The position numbers were made by a program, and so were the translations under genes. A stretch of DNA of 64,000 nucleotides, from IMG/VR virus record IMGVR_UViG_3300042308_000216, positions 31,878 through 95,877 of that record; one strand, written 5' to 3'. The notes under the pieces were generated by a model that saw only the letters and a list, made by a program, of their open reading frames with translations, was not told the DNA's origin and ran no database searches. This DNA comes from a virus. Below, in pieces: positions 2,633 to 64,000 of this stretch; position 1 is the stretch's first letter; each line of letters opens with the position of its first letter.

Positions 2633-5600
2633 ATGCCAGCTAGTAAAAATACATGGAATAAGGGACTTAATTCTGATTTATCTAAACTAAAAAGTCAACA
2701 AGATAGTTATTTAGATGCTAAGAATATTAGAGTACTTACAGATGAAGGTACTTCAAGTTTAGCCATAGAAAATATTAAAGGCACTAAACTTAGTTTTAAA
2801 TTACCGCAAGTTCAAAAAACTTTTAAAGTTGATTTTACAGGTGTTGAGGGAAATGTAACTGTTTTTATAGATAGAATAGATACTATTGATGGTTTTGTAA
2901 TTCAAAATGCAGCAGGAAAATCTAATCAAATTATTGCTGATGAACTAAATACTTTAATACAAGCATCTACTCTTTTATATGATAATCAATATATTAAAGC
3001 ATACTACAATAATAACTATATAGTTATATATGATTTTTTACCGCAGTCAGAAGTTGATGCTGGTATATCTGGTATTAATGTTCAAACAACTCCTTCTGCA
3101 TCTGTTATTAGAACTAGAGCTGTATATAACCATACAATACTTGGTTGGGGATATTATAATGACAACTTAGTTATTATTAGTTGTGATGCAAATAGTAATT
3201 CTGAAACTCCTGTTGGAACAGAAGGTTTTATATGGGATGTTAGATATATTAATCAAGATAATACTATTTCAAATCCTGATGGTGATTATTTAAATCCACT
3301 TTACCATCTTAAGTATGCTGGTAAATTAGATTTATCTAGACAGTATGCTATCTATAAACATTTAAAATGTAGATATGAAAGTTCTGAAATAATAAGATTA
3401 GTGTGGACTGATTGGAACAATAACCTTAGAACTTGTAATATAGCAGAACCGCAAATATGGGCAACACCTGAAACTGTATTTTCATTTTTACCAGTACATG
3501 CACCACAAAAACCTGTAGTATCAAGAGTTATACTTGGGGGTAATTTACCTGTAGGTAAGTATCAATATTTTTATCAATTATACACTGAGCAAGGAGCTGT
3601 ATCTACTTACTCTCCTTTAAGTAATTTAATTGGATTAAATGCTGGTGATTTAAGCTATGCTCAAAATGGAGGATTACAAGGACAGCCAGCTGGTAAATCT
3701 ACTGAGATAACTATTATTAATTTAGATACTAACTATTCTTTTATAAGATTAGGTTATGTTATATATCAAACTGCGGATAATCCAGAGGCTTTTTGGTTTT
3801 TTGAAGATATTGTACCTCAAAGTGGTACATATACTACAACACATAATGGTAATGAAAACGATATACCTATTGAACCATTCTCTGTAATAACTAATTTAAA
3901 TAAACCACCCAGCATCTTTAAAACTATTGATGTAGTTAGAAATAGATTATTTGCAGCCAATGCAAAGACTATAAAATTTGATATGGATGGTGTATTTGAT
4001 ACTAGAGCATATAGATATACTAGGGTTAGTAAACTTGCTAAATTATATAATGAACAATCAGATGTATTTGGTTTTCCAAGTGTACTTATAAATGGTGCTA
4101 CAAATACTGTTAGTATTGAAAATGTTACACAAACAGGTACTTTTTATGAACAGTTATTAGCAATACCTGATTCTTTTGATTTAATTAATCCATTTAATAA
4201 TGAAGATCCAACTAATGATTTTAATAATAATAATTGGATTACAAACTCACAATTTAAATATCAAAAAGATGGCTTAACTATAGGAGGATCAGGTCCTAAC
4301 ATATCTTATGATTTTTGTATAGCTAATAACATTGCTGAAACAGGAAACTTTCAACCAACAGGTAGTCCTTATCTAGGACCTAGATTAGATTATAATGGTA
4401 TTTATGCATCAGAATTTAATGATACATATACTTATGCAGCTGGAGCAAGTCAGTGGTTAGATACACCTAAAAGTCCATTAATTGAAACATTGTTTACAGG
4501 ATACTCAAGAGGTGAAGTTTATAGATGGGGTATTGTATTTTTTGATAAATATGGTTTTCCATCTTATGCTAATTGGATAGGAGATATCAAATTTCCATTT
4601 TCAACTGATGATAATGGAAATTATGGATTAACTAAAGAAACTACAGGAGTTAATGGTAGTCCGTTTTTCCTTATTAATGATCCTACCAAAGTAAAAAGAA
4701 CATACGGTACTGGACCTGACCCATTTAATATATTTAATATAACAAGTAATACTGATATAATTTTAAATGGTAATTTTCTTTGGAATTACAATGCTGTAAA
4801 TTCTAATAATACATCTTCACAGTTTTGTGATGAGTTAAATGCTGCTGGTATTGGTTTAACTGCAACAGCTGTTTTTCCATCAGTTTCAAATAGTCCAATT
4901 ATGATTTCAGGAGCTCCTTCAGGATCTACATTATCATTATACAGGCATATTAATCAGGTAGGTAATAGTGGGTCTGATCTTTATTTACTATCTCCTACTA
5001 ATCCAGTAGAGACACAGCAACTAGGAATTACATTTTACTTAGATACTACAACTCCTCAATTCCAAGCAATTAAAGATAGTATATCAGGTTGGTCTTATGT
5101 TAGAGTAAAGAGAGATGTAGTTAATAGTACTAAATTGGGTACAGGATATTTACAACCTACATTCCAACTATTTAACAATTCAAATGCAGAAGATGGCCTT
5201 GCTTTAATACCATATGAAAAAGGATATATGTCTTCCTATGTACGTACAGGAACAAGTCAACTTAATTCAAGGTGGAATTATCTTGCAAGTAGAGTTAGAG
5301 CACAAAACCAAGTTTTTGTAGCCCCTAATTTTTTAACTAGATCTGTTGGTGGATTTTCACAAAGAGACTACATAAGATTTATAGGAAGAACAAAAGTGTT
5401 ACCTAATGCAGTAAAATACTGGCAAGAAATACTTAGTCCTGATTTTAATAACTATGATCCAGGTAATGGAGGTGGTGTTGGTTCTTTTATGTATTATGTA
5501 AAATCCAATGACTTTGATTACAATTATTTAGATTCAGGAACTACATATCCACCTTCATCAATAGCTACAACAAGTAATTATTTAAATGTTAATAGTACTT

Positions 5601-58361: not shown

Positions 58362-58502
58362 GTTTAAGTTTTAATATTGTTAAAAATATAATTAAACAGA
58401 GCGTGCTTGGAAACTTAATCCACTACACTATATGCTTCTCTGTAAAATTATATTAGGACCATCACAGTTATGATGGACTCCACCAACTAATCCCCATTAG
58501 TG

Positions 58503-58881
58503 TGGAGGTAATGGGAGTCGAACCCATGTCTCAAAATAAATTTCAATTGTTTTCTACAAGTTTATCTAGATACCTACTAGCAGGTTTTAACAGTCTTACA
58601 ACTATCAGATAGATTGTGGATTCTATTATCCTCTATATGCCTTTAGAACAAGGTTTTTGTACTTAATTAGACAAGCTCAAGTACAGGAGCTTCAACATCA
58701 TTAAATGATGCTACAAGGTCTGCGATGGCAGATTTACCAACTACGTCAGCAATCTTACCTGTTTCAATAGTGTTTCCAGCTATTATTATCTACTAATATT
58801 TAAAGTCCTCACATTATTAGACAAGGGACTACTTGCTTACATACTTACTCTTTGTATTCTGATCAATACCATGATACCCCC
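58503..58881 (-). ncRNA. ssrA: tmRNA
   Basis: 5' GGGGGTA pairs with 3' TACCTCC-A, including the G3:U70 Ala identity pair; T-arm ATGGG-TTCGACT-CCCAT; pk1 (agtcc/ggact, ctaata/tattag); ATAGCT then resume GGA; tag ORF 58777-58667; 379 nt. Confidence 0.92.
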
Positions 58882-59167: not shown

Positions 59168-59172
59168 ATTTG

Positions 59173-59244
59173 TGTTCCCACTAGGAATCGAACCTAGATT
59201 GATGGTTTAGAAAACCATTGTTCTATCCGTTGAACTATGGAAAC
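59173..59244 (-). tRNA. tRNA-Arg (anticodon TCT)
   Basis: GTTTCCA/TGGGAAC acceptor, GTTC/GAAC D arm, ATGGT-TTTCTAA-ACCAT, CTAGG-TTCGATT-CCTAG; CCA not encoded; fits the dominant AGA usage. Confidence 0.93.
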
Positions 59245-62304: not shown

Positions 62305-62426
62305 ATTTTAATAAGATTATCATTGTGAGTAATATATTCTGTACCATCATCATCCCTGACAATAGTATAATCATCTGTAGATTTTACAATACTACAGAAT
62401 ACTTTGTGTAATGCATCGTAATACAT
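62301..62426 (-). CDS. 41-aa hypothetical protein MYYDALHKVFCS...NLIKI (missed by ORF track)
   Basis: A-rich leader; ATGA overlap with the 62304 start. Confidence 0.55.
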   Translation of the reverse strand: MYYDALHKVFCSIVKSTDDYTIVRDDDGTEYITHNDNLIKI

Positions 62427-62642
62427 TTATATAGATTTAATTAATTACAAATAAAAAATGCGTGGTAGTTATATTACCACTAGGTTAATGTCTTGTAACC
62501 TATACAATGCAAACTACGATGAGTTTGTCTAATCAGCGGCCAATATAACTGTTTATGGTTAGTGTTCCACGTGCCTTTTGCGCTAAACTGTCACTACTCA
62601 GTATTATTATAACCTGTGCACAAGTTATAACTGCTATGTTCT

Positions 62643-62975
62643 TTAATCTGCAAAAAAACATTGTCTATGTAATTCATTGAATTCTTTTTGCATTTCAAGA
62701 AATTTACATAGAATCTGATCTTTTAATGTTTGACCAAAAGACTCAAATTCATCAATAGTAGAAGTTAATTGCTTAACTCCCCATGTGTAATCACCTAAAT
62801 AAACAACCTGCTTAATCTGATTATGTTCTGGTTTTCTAGGATTAGAAGGAAACCAAGTCAGATTATCTTTAGCTGTTCCTACAGGTACACCACAATATAA
62901 TATTGTGTAGTTTCTGTCTATAGTAAGATCATTGTTTATTTCTAACACTGTTCCTTTTGTTATTTCTGCGTGCAT
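62643..62975 (-). CDS. hypothetical protein
   Basis: 110-aa ORF. Confidence 0.6.
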   Translation of the reverse strand: MHAEITKGTVLEINNDLTIDRNYTILYCGVPVGTAKDNLTWFPSNPRKPEHNQIKQVVYLGDYTWGVKQLTSTIDEFESFGQTLKDQILCKFLEMQKEFNELHRQCFFAD

Positions 62976-63005
62976 TGTATATAAGTTTAGTTAGTTACGA
63001 AAGAA

Positions 63006-63590
63006 AATATTTACATTTAGTTGTAATTTGCACAATGGTCATGGATATAAATCCCCATTATTATACTATTAACAGTTTTGAGTTTTACCTCACTGAAAGC
63101 ATACTAAACAGTGTACGTAATATTTAGTACTCTAAGTGTTCATCTTTCTGTTAAATATTCGTATAACACGCTTACAAATTACAACTAAGTGTAAAGATTA
63201 TTAACAATGTAGGTGGACGTTTTCATCTCCTAATTGATTGTTAAATAATATTATTTGCCCATCTGCACTCAGTTGTAATCCGCACAACATAAAACTTACT
63301 CATCGCTATGCAGTGATTGCTGCCTTATAAGCTACATTAGTAAGCTGAGTTCTTGTTGATACTACTTAAGAATTACAACTGCTCACCCTTTGGAAACTGA
63401 TTAATAACTATGGTAGAGTTCCAACTTATCCTTAGCAATATACTAGTAAATGATTAACTAGTGCTTACCTTCAGTATCTCCCCTATTTTCCCAACTTCAT
63501 TATTAATCAGTGTAGTTTCATATCTTAAATGTATTTGTATTTCTACAGCCTATATTTCTTCAGCCAACCATTTAAGATATTATACTACGT
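63006..63590. ncRNA. array of five adjacent stem-closed structured noncoding units
   Basis: Inverted repeats 63010-63030/63175-63195, 63201-63208/63237-63244, 63270-63279/63372-63381, 63396-63407/63500-63511, 63520-63531/63569-63580; no ORF of 60 aa or more. Confidence 0.6.
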
Positions 63591-63643
63591 GAGTTGTGGT
63601 GCATTAACAAATTTGGAAGCTTATGGTTTACCAACCTATAGTT

Positions 63644-63811
63644 TTAATATCTCCTTATCCATAGTCCATCTTCAAAATCCCAAATAGATTTATCAATAAG
63701 CACTATTATTTTTTTATCTTTATCATGCCTTTCAATGTATTGACTTAATTCACTATAAGTTTTTACATTACTAGCAAAATTATCATCAAAGTTAAATGAA
63801 TGTGGTATCAT
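63644..63811 (-). CDS. hypothetical protein (MIPHSFNFDD...)
   Basis: ATG 63811 lies downstream of a hairpin; the longer GTG start in the track falls inside that hairpin. Confidence 0.5.
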   Translation of the reverse strand: MIPHSFNFDDNFASNVKTYSELSQYIERHDKDKKIIVLIDKSIWDFEDGLWIRRY

Positions 63812-63834
63812 GATTTCTAGTATTAAAAGGTTAA

Positions 63835-63893
63835 ACAAAAAATACAATGCATTGAGTATAGCTGTATAGCCTCCCACCTCAACACATTGTATT
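63835..63893 (-). terminator. long hairpin with U-tract
   Basis: Minus strand aatacaatgtgttgag...ctcaatgcattgtatt-ttttg (G:U pairs favour the minus strand). Confidence 0.55.
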
Positions 63894-64000
63894 AATTTAC
63901 TGCTCTTTTTCCATATCTAGACCTGTAGATACAGTTAAGATTAGAATAATAATGGTATGTAACACCCATATAGGTGAACATTGAATGTTATAGAATGTTT

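What the first reader, a model, noticed from the sequence alone, without database searches (positions are those of the whole stretch)
63006..63590. Five back-to-back stem-closed noncoding units in the early region: candidate small-RNA or ssDNA-hairpin array
Seen: an ORF-free ~590-nt stretch is tiled almost without gaps by units closed by long inverted repeats of 21 bp with 1 mismatch (63010-63195, multibranched inside), 8 bp (63201-63244), 10 bp (63270-63381), 12 bp (63396-63511) and 12 bp (63520-63580). Units 1 and 3 share the closing stem AGTTGTAAT/ATTACAACT but have different interiors. The unit 5 loop has a tandem GGCTG[A/T]AGAAATA repeat on the minus strand. Inference: a polycistronic array of small RNAs released by RNase III-type cleavage of the stems (decoys, antitoxin mimics or protein sponges), with exchangeable interiors. 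Alternatively these are DNA hairpins serving as vRNAP promoters or injection signals, since this is the region expected to be expressed first.
Basis: partly seen in the sequence, partly recalled or inferred. Interest (0 to 1): 0.8.

Follow-up and report, generated by a model that had tools for sequence, protein, structure and literature searches.

The report
Expanded twister ribozyme in phage spacer
The five "units" are not separate small RNAs: three are nested arms of one ~360-base twister-type self-cutting RNA on the opposite (gene) strand, an enlarged form of a known ribozyme class that is common in lake crAss-like phages and missed by the RNA catalogue; the other two are a small hairpin and a related plain hairpin in front of a small gene.

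Summary
The inverted repeats are real and fold far better than shuffled sequence (z -3.6 to -4.5). They are nested, not tandem.

On the minus strand, which is the strand of the flanking genes, 63612-63253 forms one RNA with the full anatomy of a type-P1 twister self-cleaving ribozyme:
- stems P1, P2 and P4;
- a U|A-A cleavage loop, with the cut predicted between 63606 and 63605;
- an L4 loop matching the rice twister loop at 7 of 8 positions;
- both pseudoknots, and the G-A after P2.

Unit 3 is the auxiliary P5 arm. Units 4 and 5 are a two-hairpin domain inserted between P4 and L4. The closest relative with a compact ribozyme (L130) lacks that domain exactly.

More than 100 distinct copies occur in IMG/VR viral contigs. 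P1 and pseudoknot T1 covary among them. Rfam's twister-P1 model does not detect any copy tested.

Unit 1 is a non-catalytic hairpin that shares the P5 base. With a conserved leader, it heads the 110-aa gene. Unit 2 is a small unconserved hairpin.

The RNase III small-RNA array and the vRNAP DNA-hairpin readings are not supported. Earlier agents of this scan reported the same expanded twister on other genomes. I score it a new variant of a known kind. Cleavage itself is untested.

The parts
63626..63637 (-). Small 4-bp hairpin between the stop codon of the 77-aa ORF (63644-63646) and the ribozyme. Possible optional P0. Conserved only in near relatives.
   Evidence: Read. The block 63589-63647 is 89-93% identical in L130 and L143.
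63607..63612 (-). P1, 5' strand. Pairs with 63253-63258.
   Evidence: MFE fold. P1 covaries in the family: all 8 counted pairs have changes on both sides. Own partners give more consecutive pairs than shuffled partners, 2.7 versus 1.3.
63604..63606 (-). L1 5' strand, U-A-A. The predicted scissile bond lies between U63606 and A63605. A63605 is the candidate general acid.
   Evidence: 65 of 68 family members picked only by L4/P4 carry A-A at this place. N-1 is U in 67 of 76. The cleavage rule 'NA' next to P1 is from PMC5408937 and PMC11662667.
63600..63603 (-). P2, 5' strand, 4 bp. Pairs with 63264-63267.
   Evidence: One member has a change on both sides that keeps the pair (L262).
63598..63599 (-). 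L2 dinucleotide C-C, the 5' half of the 2-bp pseudoknot (T2 / PK1). Pairs with G63387-G63388 in L4.
   Evidence: C-C with G-G in 65 of 76 members; departures include U-G wobbles (3 U-C, 1 C-U) and 7 members with a mismatch. The 'NC' rule is from PMC11662667.
63589..63593 (-). P4, 5' strand. Pairs with 63382-63386.
   Evidence: Compensatory stem changes in L069 and L199.
63512..63588 (-).
   Evidence: Absent exactly in L130. The same insertion site and a conserved H1 architecture occur in about 16 members. The closing pairs covary (G-C to A-U) in G000, L058, L090, L165 and L112. 92% identical copy in L118.
63396..63511 (-). It has a conserved closing helix and a variable interior.
   Evidence: The conserved 3' end of H2 directly precedes L4 in about a quarter of the family listing.
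63387..63395 (-). L4 loop, 9 nt. Carries the 3' half of T2 (63387-63388) and the 5' half of T1 (63391-63393).
   Evidence: The family consensus matches the rice L4 at 7 of 8 positions. The eighth is the partner of the changed L2 base. G000 has the C-to-A variant with the matching U in the tail.
63382..63386 (-). P4, 3' strand.
63270..63381 (-). It has a 10-bp base that is nearly invariant in the family and a 92-nt interior with no relatives.
63259..63267 (-). P2 3' strand (63264-63267), then G63263-A63262 (G is the candidate general base), then the T1 3' half (63259-63261).
   Evidence: The tail begins G-A in all but 4 of 76 members. T1 covaries: C-G in 34 and A-U in 6 at one pair, and A-U once at the next.
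63253..63258 (-). P1, 3' strand. This is the 3' end of the ribozyme.
63201..63244 (-). No relatives found.
63006..63199 (-). It has no twister core, so it is non-catalytic.
   Evidence: Homologous hairpins sit in L128 and L288 with a compensatory outer helix and unrelated interiors.
62976..63005 (-). Conserved 30-nt leader between unit 1 and the start codon of the 110-aa ORF.
   Evidence: Aligned with L288 and L128.
62643..62975 (-). 110-aa ORF of unknown function, the first gene after the ribozyme.
   Evidence: Seven homologues at 63-92% identity, none named. No Pfam or PHROG family.

Best explanation
The region is transcribed leftward (minus strand) with the small genes around it. Positions 63612-63253 fold into one expanded type-P1 twister-class ribozyme.

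Anatomy: P1 closes the whole element. An internal loop holds the U|A-A cleavage site. P2 leads to a junction bearing the P4/L4 hairpin and a long auxiliary P5 arm (unit 3). L4 pairs with the two bases after P2 (pseudoknot T2) and with the three bases after the G-A that follows the P2 3' strand (pseudoknot T1). A two-hairpin extra domain (units 5 and 4) is inserted between the P4 5' strand and L4.

Inferred mechanism: the RNA cuts itself between U63606 and A63605, 38 nt after the stop codon of the 77-aa ORF. This separates the upstream message from a downstream RNA that begins with a 5'-OH and the folded ribozyme. That downstream RNA carries unit 2, the unit 1 hairpin, a conserved leader and the 110-aa ORF. 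The likely role is transcript processing or insulation of gene cassettes in a hypervariable accessory region.

Unit 1 is a twister-derived hairpin that kept only the P5 base and an outer helix.

Shown: the fold, the conserved core, the covariation, and the family distribution and orientation. Inferred: cleavage, its site and its biological role.
For: 1. Independent MFE folding of 63250-63615 (minus) gives P1, P2, P4, H1, H2 and P5 nested in one closed structure, z = -4.49. The compact relative L130 gives the same three-way junction.

It yielded 123 distinct flank combinations and 109 distinct twister-type copies.

3. The parts not used as search anchor are conserved. A-A follows the cut site in 65 of 68 members. 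Among the 76 parsed members, P2 5' strand is UGCA in 69, C-C follows P2 in 67, L4 is the consensus in 53 plus 10 with one covarying change, and the tail starts G-A then GGG or UGG in 68.

4. Match to published twister rules. The rice P4-L4 16-mer, PK1 'NC', cleavage 'NA', and the catalytic A and G are given in PMC11662667. Three essential stems, two pseudoknots, conserved bases in L1 and L4, a 4-bp P2 and optional P0/P3/P5 are given in PMC5408937.

5. Covariation on 41 aligned members: 88.4% of cells paired versus 84.9% in shuffles (0 of 500 reach it) and 31-46% with slid partners. All 8 P1 pairs change on both sides. T1 has two pairs with changes on both sides. The loop/tail combinations are UCCC:GGGR in 55 members, UCCA:UGGR in 9 and UCAC:GUGG in 1.

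6. RNA strand: the wobble pairs lie on this strand. GNRA and UUCG loops in the short derivatives appear only on this strand. The minus strand folds 20 kcal/mol better than the plus strand.

7. Context in 54 copies: flanking ORFs are co-oriented with the ribozyme (coverage 0.34 and 0.52 on the same strand versus 0.06 and 0.07 opposite). The next ORF starts a median 176 nt downstream.
Against: - Rfam's twister-P1 model (RF03160) finds nothing in the genome at E <= 10. No twister family appears in cmscan of the window, of L130, or of two compact members.
- T2 shows only invariance and wobbles within the family, with no change on both sides.
- A 193-nt domain inserted at the P4/L4 border is, to my knowledge, not described for twisters and might hinder folding.
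- The members were collected with a motif covering the P4 3' strand and the P5 base, so conservation of those segments is partly by construction.
- The core hardly varies, which limits covariation evidence for P2 and P4.
- There are no RNA reads and no cleavage assay.
Confidence: 0.78

Rival explanations
1. This is a twister-derived but non-catalytic structured RNA. The fold is kept as a protein-binding or stabilising scaffold, or as an abundant stable early non-coding RNA like those of phage phi14:2, and self-cleavage has been lost or never occurs in vivo.
For: The Rfam model fails. There is a large insertion at the P4/L4 border. Clearly non-catalytic derivatives keep the P5 arm and outer helices: unit 1, the short three-way-junction forms, and L118, which lacks the L4 consensus. 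phi14:2 makes abundant, persistent early non-coding RNAs of unknown role.
Against: The residues needed only for catalysis (A after the cut site, G-A after P2, both pseudoknots) are kept in about 90-96% of copies. That is hard to explain for a mere scaffold.
Confidence: 0.12
2. One reading: a polycistronic array of five independent small RNAs, freed by RNase III cuts in their closing stems, that act as decoys, antitoxin mimics or sponges.
For: Long perfect stems exist that RNase III could cut: unit 1 about 23 bp, the P5 base plus extension about 12-14 bp. The interiors are exchangeable.
Against: Units 3-5 are nested inside P1/P2/P4 of one element, not tandem. Units 4-5 are absent from L130 while the frame around them is intact. 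The interiors are not conserved at all, which does not fit specific decoys. There are no repeated mimic units.
Confidence: 0.04
3. DNA-level elements: single-strand hairpin promoters or injection signals for the virion RNA polymerase, or mobile palindromes or recombination sites (MITE- or attC-like).
For: The region is hypervariable even among phages with 92-99% identical structural genes. The stem sequence rather than only the pairing is conserved. Units 4-5 behave as an insertion/deletion.
Against: The features are strand-specific to RNA: wobble pairs, tetraloops and a covarying pseudoknot. There is no target-site duplication at the unit 4-5 borders. There is one copy per genome. Loops of 26-190 nt are unlike the small N4-type promoter hairpins (own knowledge). 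Early phi14:2 transcripts had no common upstream motif.
Confidence: 0.05

Closest known systems
Twister self-cleaving ribozyme, type P1 with auxiliary P5 (Rfam RF03160; Roth et al. 2014 as reviewed in PMC5408937; large-scale testing in PMC11662667)
   Same: It has the same order of elements: P1, a U|A-A loop, a 4-bp P2, a two-base L2 pseudoknot half, P4, an L4 matching rice at 7 of 8 positions, P5, the P2 3' strand, G-A, a three-base pseudoknot half, and P1. Both pseudoknots are complementary, and T1 and P1 covary.
   Different: It is not detected by the Rfam model. It has no P3. T2 is C-C:G-G instead of G-C:G-C. L4 has one extra 5' base. The P5 base is nearly invariant over 10 bp, although P5 is described as having no consensus. 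About a quarter of copies, this one included, carry a conserved two-hairpin domain of 65-260 nt at the P4/L4 border.
Bacterial and phage-associated hammerhead and twister ribozymes proposed to process polycistronic mRNAs (PMC6765202)
   Same: It lies between co-oriented genes, and the proposed role is cutting a polycistronic transcript.
   Different: That role is only a suggestion in the literature. Here the copies head small gene cassettes of a hypervariable phage region.
RNase III processing hairpins of the phage T7 early transcript (own knowledge)
   Same: Both are intergenic structured RNA in an early operon that would separate messages and leave protective structures.
   Different: The T7 sites are single irregular hairpins cut by a host enzyme. 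Here the core is a ribozyme fold with pseudoknots and the stems are nested.
N4 virion-RNAP hairpin promoters (own knowledge; the review PMC4496689 was listed but not read)
   Same: Both involve inverted repeats in a region expected to be expressed early in a phage with a virion RNA polymerase.
   Different: N4 promoters are small DNA hairpins with a few-base loop. These stems enclose 26-190 nt and carry RNA-strand-specific signatures.
Promoter-early stem-loop (PeSL) regulatory cassettes of T4-type phages (own knowledge, Arbiol et al. 2010; not checked here)
   Same: Both are repeated conserved intergenic stem-loops at the borders of small genes in hyperplastic regions, and both are possible substrates for modular shuffling.
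   Different: PeSLs combine a stem-loop with an early promoter. No promoter was recognised here, and the main element is a ribozyme.
Abundant early long non-coding RNAs of crAss-like phage phi14:2 (bioRxiv 10.1101/2020.03.07.982082)
   Same: Both are long ORF-free stretches among early small genes of a crAss-like phage. The phi14:2 RNAs are transcribed early, are abundant and have unknown function.
   Different: No twister L4 motif occurs in the phi14:2 non-coding stretch 2904-4602. Part of that stretch is a tmRNA gene.

Membership tests
Twister ribozyme (type P1) | [quoted passage not shown] | tested here: met
   MFE folds. Pair counts give 100% for P2, 99.5% for P4, and P1 covarying. The feature is taken from PMC5408937.
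Twister ribozyme (type P1) | Cleavage dinucleotide N|A adjoining P1, with a highly conserved A (general acid) | tested here: met
   U-A-A at 63606-63604. A-A in 65 of 68 members chosen without reference to it. N-1 is U in 67 of 76.
Twister ribozyme (type P1) | P2 of four Watson-Crick pairs | tested here: met
   63603-63600 pairs with 63267-63264. All 41 aligned members pair at all four positions. A possible fifth pair is left open.
Twister ribozyme (type P1) | Two-base pseudoknot (T2 / PK1) between the 'NC' after P2 and two bases of L4 | tested here: inconclusive
   Complementary in 65 of 76 members (C-C with G-G), with wobbles in four. There is no change on both sides within the family. Relative to rice (G-C) the first pair is swapped on both sides, which fits the rule but is a comparison of only two forms.
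Twister ribozyme (type P1) | Three-base pseudoknot (T1 / PK2) between L4 and the 3' strand of L1 | tested here: met
   98.4% of cells paired. Two of the three pairs have changes on both sides. G000 itself carries the covarying A-U form.
Twister ribozyme (type P1) | Conserved L4 sequence and P4 closing pair | tested here: met
   The family L4 matches the L4 of the published rice P4-L4 16-mer at 7 of 8 positions. One extra U lies at the 5' end of the loop.
Twister ribozyme (type P1) | Conserved G (general base) in the L1 3' strand next to P2 | tested here: met
   G63263-A63262. The tail begins G-A in all but 4 of 76 members.
Twister ribozyme (type P1) | Reaches the curated score of the Rfam covariance model RF03160 | tested here: not met
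   No match at E <= 10 in the whole genome. No twister hit. The lack of P3 and the long P5 and H1-H2 insertions are a plausible but unproven reason.
Twister ribozyme (type P1) | Site-specific self-cleavage giving 2',3'-cyclic phosphate and 5'-OH ends | not testable with these tools
   Needs an in vitro transcript or end-specific RNA sequencing.
RNase III-processed array of independent small RNAs | Tandem, self-contained hairpin units, each separately releasable | tested here: not met
   Units 3-5 are nested within P1/P2/P4 of one element. Units 4-5 are an optional insert.
N4-type vRNAP hairpin promoter | Small DNA hairpin (short stem, loop of a few bases) with a conserved sequence upstream of early transcription starts | tested here: not met
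   The loops are 26-190 nt. The signatures are specific to one RNA strand. Transcription starts could not be tested.
MITE / IS-derived palindromic element | Terminal inverted repeats with a target-site duplication and several near-identical copies per genome | tested here: not met
   No duplication at the borders of the unit 4-5 insert when compared with L130. There is a single twister copy and one related hairpin in the 95.7-kb genome.
Integron attC site | Core sites of the RYYYAAC / GTTRRRY type and an associated integron integrase | tested here: not met
   The stem bases do not fit either core consensus (read; the consensus is from own knowledge). No integrase was looked for beyond the neighbouring ORFs.

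The most novel reading that the evidence does not exclude
The 10-bp P5 base is nearly invariant. It is shared by the catalytic element (unit 3), by the non-catalytic hairpin that heads the 110-aa gene (unit 1) and by the short three-way-junction forms. On this reading it is a recognition or recombination signal in its own right. Ribozyme-headed gene cassettes would then be swapped among lake crAss-like phages at these sites, giving a PeSL- or integron-like cassette system whose units carry their own RNA insulator. The conserved H1-H2 insert would add a further, possibly regulatory, function.
Probability: 0.15. Interest if true: 0.8.

Novelty: new variant of a known kind. Interest (0 to 1): 0.52.

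Why it matters
The biological role of twister ribozymes is still largely open (PMC5408937, PMC6765202). This family has more than 100 natural copies in one defined setting: between co-oriented small genes in the hypervariable accessory region of environmental crAss-like phages. It also offers natural variants, namely compact copies, copies with a conserved two-hairpin insert, and catalytically dead derivatives. That makes two questions directly testable: whether self-cleavage insulates or stabilises cassette messages, and what the extra domain does. It also shows that the standard catalogue model misses a large viral branch of the class, so ribozyme counts in viromes are underestimates. For genome annotation, it explains a recurrent 'ornate non-coding gap' in these phages.

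Tried and rejected
- Rfam searches of the window, L130 and two compact members found no relevant family. RF03160 on the whole genome found nothing.
- BLAST of the region and of a compact ribozyme against 50,697 GenBank phage records gave no match. The family is so far seen only in IMG/VR contigs, one metagenome contig and six lake MAG contigs of inconsistent taxonomy.
- The 110-aa ORF gave no relative in viral contigs.
- The first loose stem pattern looked like chance, but many of its loci later proved to be family members.
- The scan for the plain-hairpin form gave 67 stretches. Only 5 had the partner arm, so most were chance and this form is rare.
- Hammerhead core, integron attC cores and the Bacteroidota -33/-7 promoter motif were compared by eye with the conserved flanks and leader. 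None fitted.
- The phi14:2 early non-coding stretch has no twister L4 motif.
- The interiors of P5, H2 and unit 2 have no similar sequence in any fetched locus.
- Complex prediction, structure prediction and the protein atlas were not used because no protein partner is in question.

Full report
**Setting.** The window is the right-hand 64 kb of a 95,877-nt IMG/VR record. The record's ends overlap by 135 nt with one mismatch, so the assembly is a circle of 95,742 bp. The layout is crAss-like: giant ORFs of 3,648 and 2,421 aa on the plus strand and a block of minus-strand genes. The large terminase is about 32% identical to Crassvirales terminases. The finding lies between minus-strand ORFs 62643-62975 (110 aa) and 63644-63877 (77 aa), in a run of small genes of unknown function.

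So are the arms shared by units 1 and 3 and the tandem repeat in unit 5. Both strands fold better than shuffles, the minus strand more so (z -4.18, -146 kcal/mol, against z -3.58, -126 kcal/mol). The minus-strand fold does not give five beads on a string. Units 5, 4 and 3 sit inside further helices that close at 63612 and 63253.

**Relatives.** The terminase brought in 80 related loci. Between window position 62312 and genome position 1415, phages whose structural genes are 92-99% identical share only short blocks. The region is therefore hypervariable. The shared blocks are the borders of the units. The unit 3 stem pair recurs in many relatives at the same relative place, with interiors of quite different length and sequence. 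In L130 the unit 3 frame is present with a 41-nt interior, and units 4 and 5 are missing exactly, with the flanks joined.

**The conserved frame.** Reading the gene strand, the copies share a frame around the variable arm:
- a short outer helix;
- a five-base junction;
- a 5-bp hairpin with a nine-base loop of fixed sequence;
- the variable arm;
- the return strand of the outer helix, then G-A and three G.

MFE folds of compact copies give this three-way junction. I noticed that the hairpin loop and the G-rich tail change together. That is a pseudoknot.

After parsing there were 123 distinct flank combinations and 109 distinct copies of this type. Short derivative forms replace the hairpin loop by GNRA or UUCG tetraloops, which appear as such only on the gene strand.

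**Naming it.** A look-up of earlier notes of this scan showed that follow-up agents on other genomes had called similar sequences an expanded twister ribozyme that Rfam misses. I tested this against the published rules rather than accepting it. The review PMC5408937 defines twister by these features:
- stems P1, P2 and P4, with optional P0, P3 and P5;
- two pseudoknots;
- a U-A cleavage site next to P1;
- a 4-bp P2;
- a conserved dinucleotide after P2 that pairs with L4;
- a conserved catalytic G and A.

PMC11662667 prints the rice P4-L4 16-mer, the 'NC' rule for the small pseudoknot and the 'NA' rule for the cleavage site. It also states that P5 has no consensus.

The family matches on all of these structural points:
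- U-A-A lies before a 4-bp P2.
- C-C after P2 is complementary to G-G in L4.
- L4 matches rice at seven of eight bases. The eighth is the partner of the changed base after P2.
- G-A follows P2.
- Three bases pair with L4.
- P1 closes the element.

On 41 aligned compact members the structure, pseudoknots included, is 88.4% paired. Shuffled partners give 84.9% (0 of 500 reach the observed value) and slid partners give 31-46%. All eight P1 pairs and two of three T1 pairs show changes on both sides.

The negative results: Rfam's twister-P1 model scores nothing here, and T2 has no change on both sides within the family.

**Map in this window (minus strand).**

| Element | Coordinates |
|---|---|
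| P1 | 63612-63607 with 63258-63253 |
| Predicted cut | between U63606 and A63605 |
| P2 | 63603-63600 with 63267-63264 |
| T2 | 63599-63598 with 63388-63387 |
| P4 | 63593-63589 with 63386-63382 |
| H1 (unit 5) | 63588-63512 |
| H2 (unit 4) | 63511-63396 |
| L4 | 63395-63387 |
| P5 (unit 3) | 63381-63270 |
| G-A | 63263-63262 |
| T1 | 63261-63259 with 63391-63393 |

This copy has the A-U form of the covarying T1 pair.

**The H1-H2 insert.** It is not a private accident. About 16 other members carry an insert at the same point. In these, H1 has a conserved internal loop and a closing helix that covaries, and H2 has a conserved closing helix. Close relatives differ in having it: G000 has 193 nt, the L128/L058 copy has 187 nt of different sequence, and L130 has none.

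**Units 1 and 2.** After the ribozyme come an unconserved small hairpin (unit 2) and unit 1. Unit 1 has the same base as P5, extended by an outer helix, but lacks the twister core. The metagenome contig L288 encodes a 76% identical homologue of the 110-aa protein. There the same kind of hairpin, with a compensatory outer helix and an unrelated interior, precedes the same 30-nt leader and the gene. The gene is followed by the same conserved 182-nt element. The twister in L288 lies one gene further upstream. Hairpin, leader, gene and 182-nt element therefore travel together, and the ribozyme is a separate module. This plain-hairpin form is rare.

**How it probably works.** In 54 copies with enough flank, the neighbouring ORFs are co-oriented with the ribozyme and the next ORF starts a median 176 nt downstream. 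The likeliest role is the one suggested for bacterial and phage-associated twisters (PMC6765202): cutting a polycistronic transcript. Because the cut is at the 5' edge, the folded ribozyme stays on the downstream RNA as a 5'-OH structured leader. That could insulate or stabilise the cassette message. This step is inference.

**What remains unexplained.** The P5 base is nearly invariant and is shared with non-catalytic hairpins, and the H1-H2 domain is conserved. Neither is explained by catalysis. Both are the basis of the more novel reading given separately.

**Verdict.** The element is a new variant of a known ribozyme class. This scan has reported it before on other genomes. Cleavage is not demonstrated.

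Noticed in passing
window 58500-58881 (-) and 59172-59244 (-): A phage-encoded tmRNA (Rfam RF00023, 72.6 bits, gathering score 47) that ARAGORN did not call, next to a tRNA-Arg(UCU). In phage phi14:2 a tmRNA (L203:4031-4500, ARAGORN tag peptide; Rfam 46 bits) lies in the g005-g006 stretch. That stretch was reported as one of two abundant early 'long non-coding RNAs' of unknown function.
   Followed up: partly
window 62453-62634 (-): A 182-nt non-coding element directly after the 110-aa ORF. It has a 5' 11-bp hairpin, inner hairpins, and a terminator-like hairpin followed by a U run. It is 99.5% identical in L130 and 96.7% in L129 with unrelated flanks, 76% in L053, and is also present after the ORF homologue in L288. 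Two pairs keep pairing through changes on both sides. It is a candidate small RNA or 3' UTR element.
   Followed up: partly
G000 ends (genome 1-135 and 95743-95877; window 63866-64000): The record is labelled linear and 59% complete, but its ends overlap by 135 nt with one mismatch. This suggests a complete circular assembly of 95,742 bp.
   Followed up: yes
window 62312 to genome position 1415 (across the contig junction): This is a hypervariable accessory region. Phages with 92-99% identical structural genes (L128, L129, L130) share only short non-coding blocks here, and the gene content differs.
   Followed up: partly
L011, L067/L168 (4697-4808), L153, L127, L105 and others: These carry short three-way-junction derivatives. 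The 3' half matches the twister, but the 5' half lacks the cleavage loop and L4. Instead it forms a 10-bp outer helix and a mini-hairpin with GNRA, UUCG or UUAG loops, so they are presumably non-catalytic.
   Followed up: partly
L118:9800-10090 (+): This copy keeps H1 (92% identical to unit 5), H2 and the P5 arm, but its L4 consensus is replaced. It may be a dead ribozyme that retains the accessory domains.
   Followed up: no
L132, L133, L144, L148 (upstream of their plain hairpins): A further conserved structured block of about 45 nt precedes the plain hairpins. Its inner hairpin is replaced in L144 by one with a UUCG loop. Function unknown.
   Followed up: no
L168:4215-4945 (-), inside its H2: A stretch resembling a tRNA T-arm (G-G-G-U-U-C-A-A-U-U-C-C-C) lies within the inserted domain of that copy.
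   Followed up: no
L289-L294 (genome contigs): The ribozyme's 19-mer occurs in only six of 185,579 species genomes. All six are lake or environmental MAG contigs assigned to unrelated phyla (Pseudomonadota, Bacteroidia, Saccharibacteria, Chitinophagales). Phage contigs were probably binned into MAGs.
   Followed up: no
window 63201-63244 (-): The unit 2 loop holds a 13-codon ORF starting right after an A-G-G-A-G. It is not conserved and the spacing is wrong for a ribosome-binding site.
   Followed up: no
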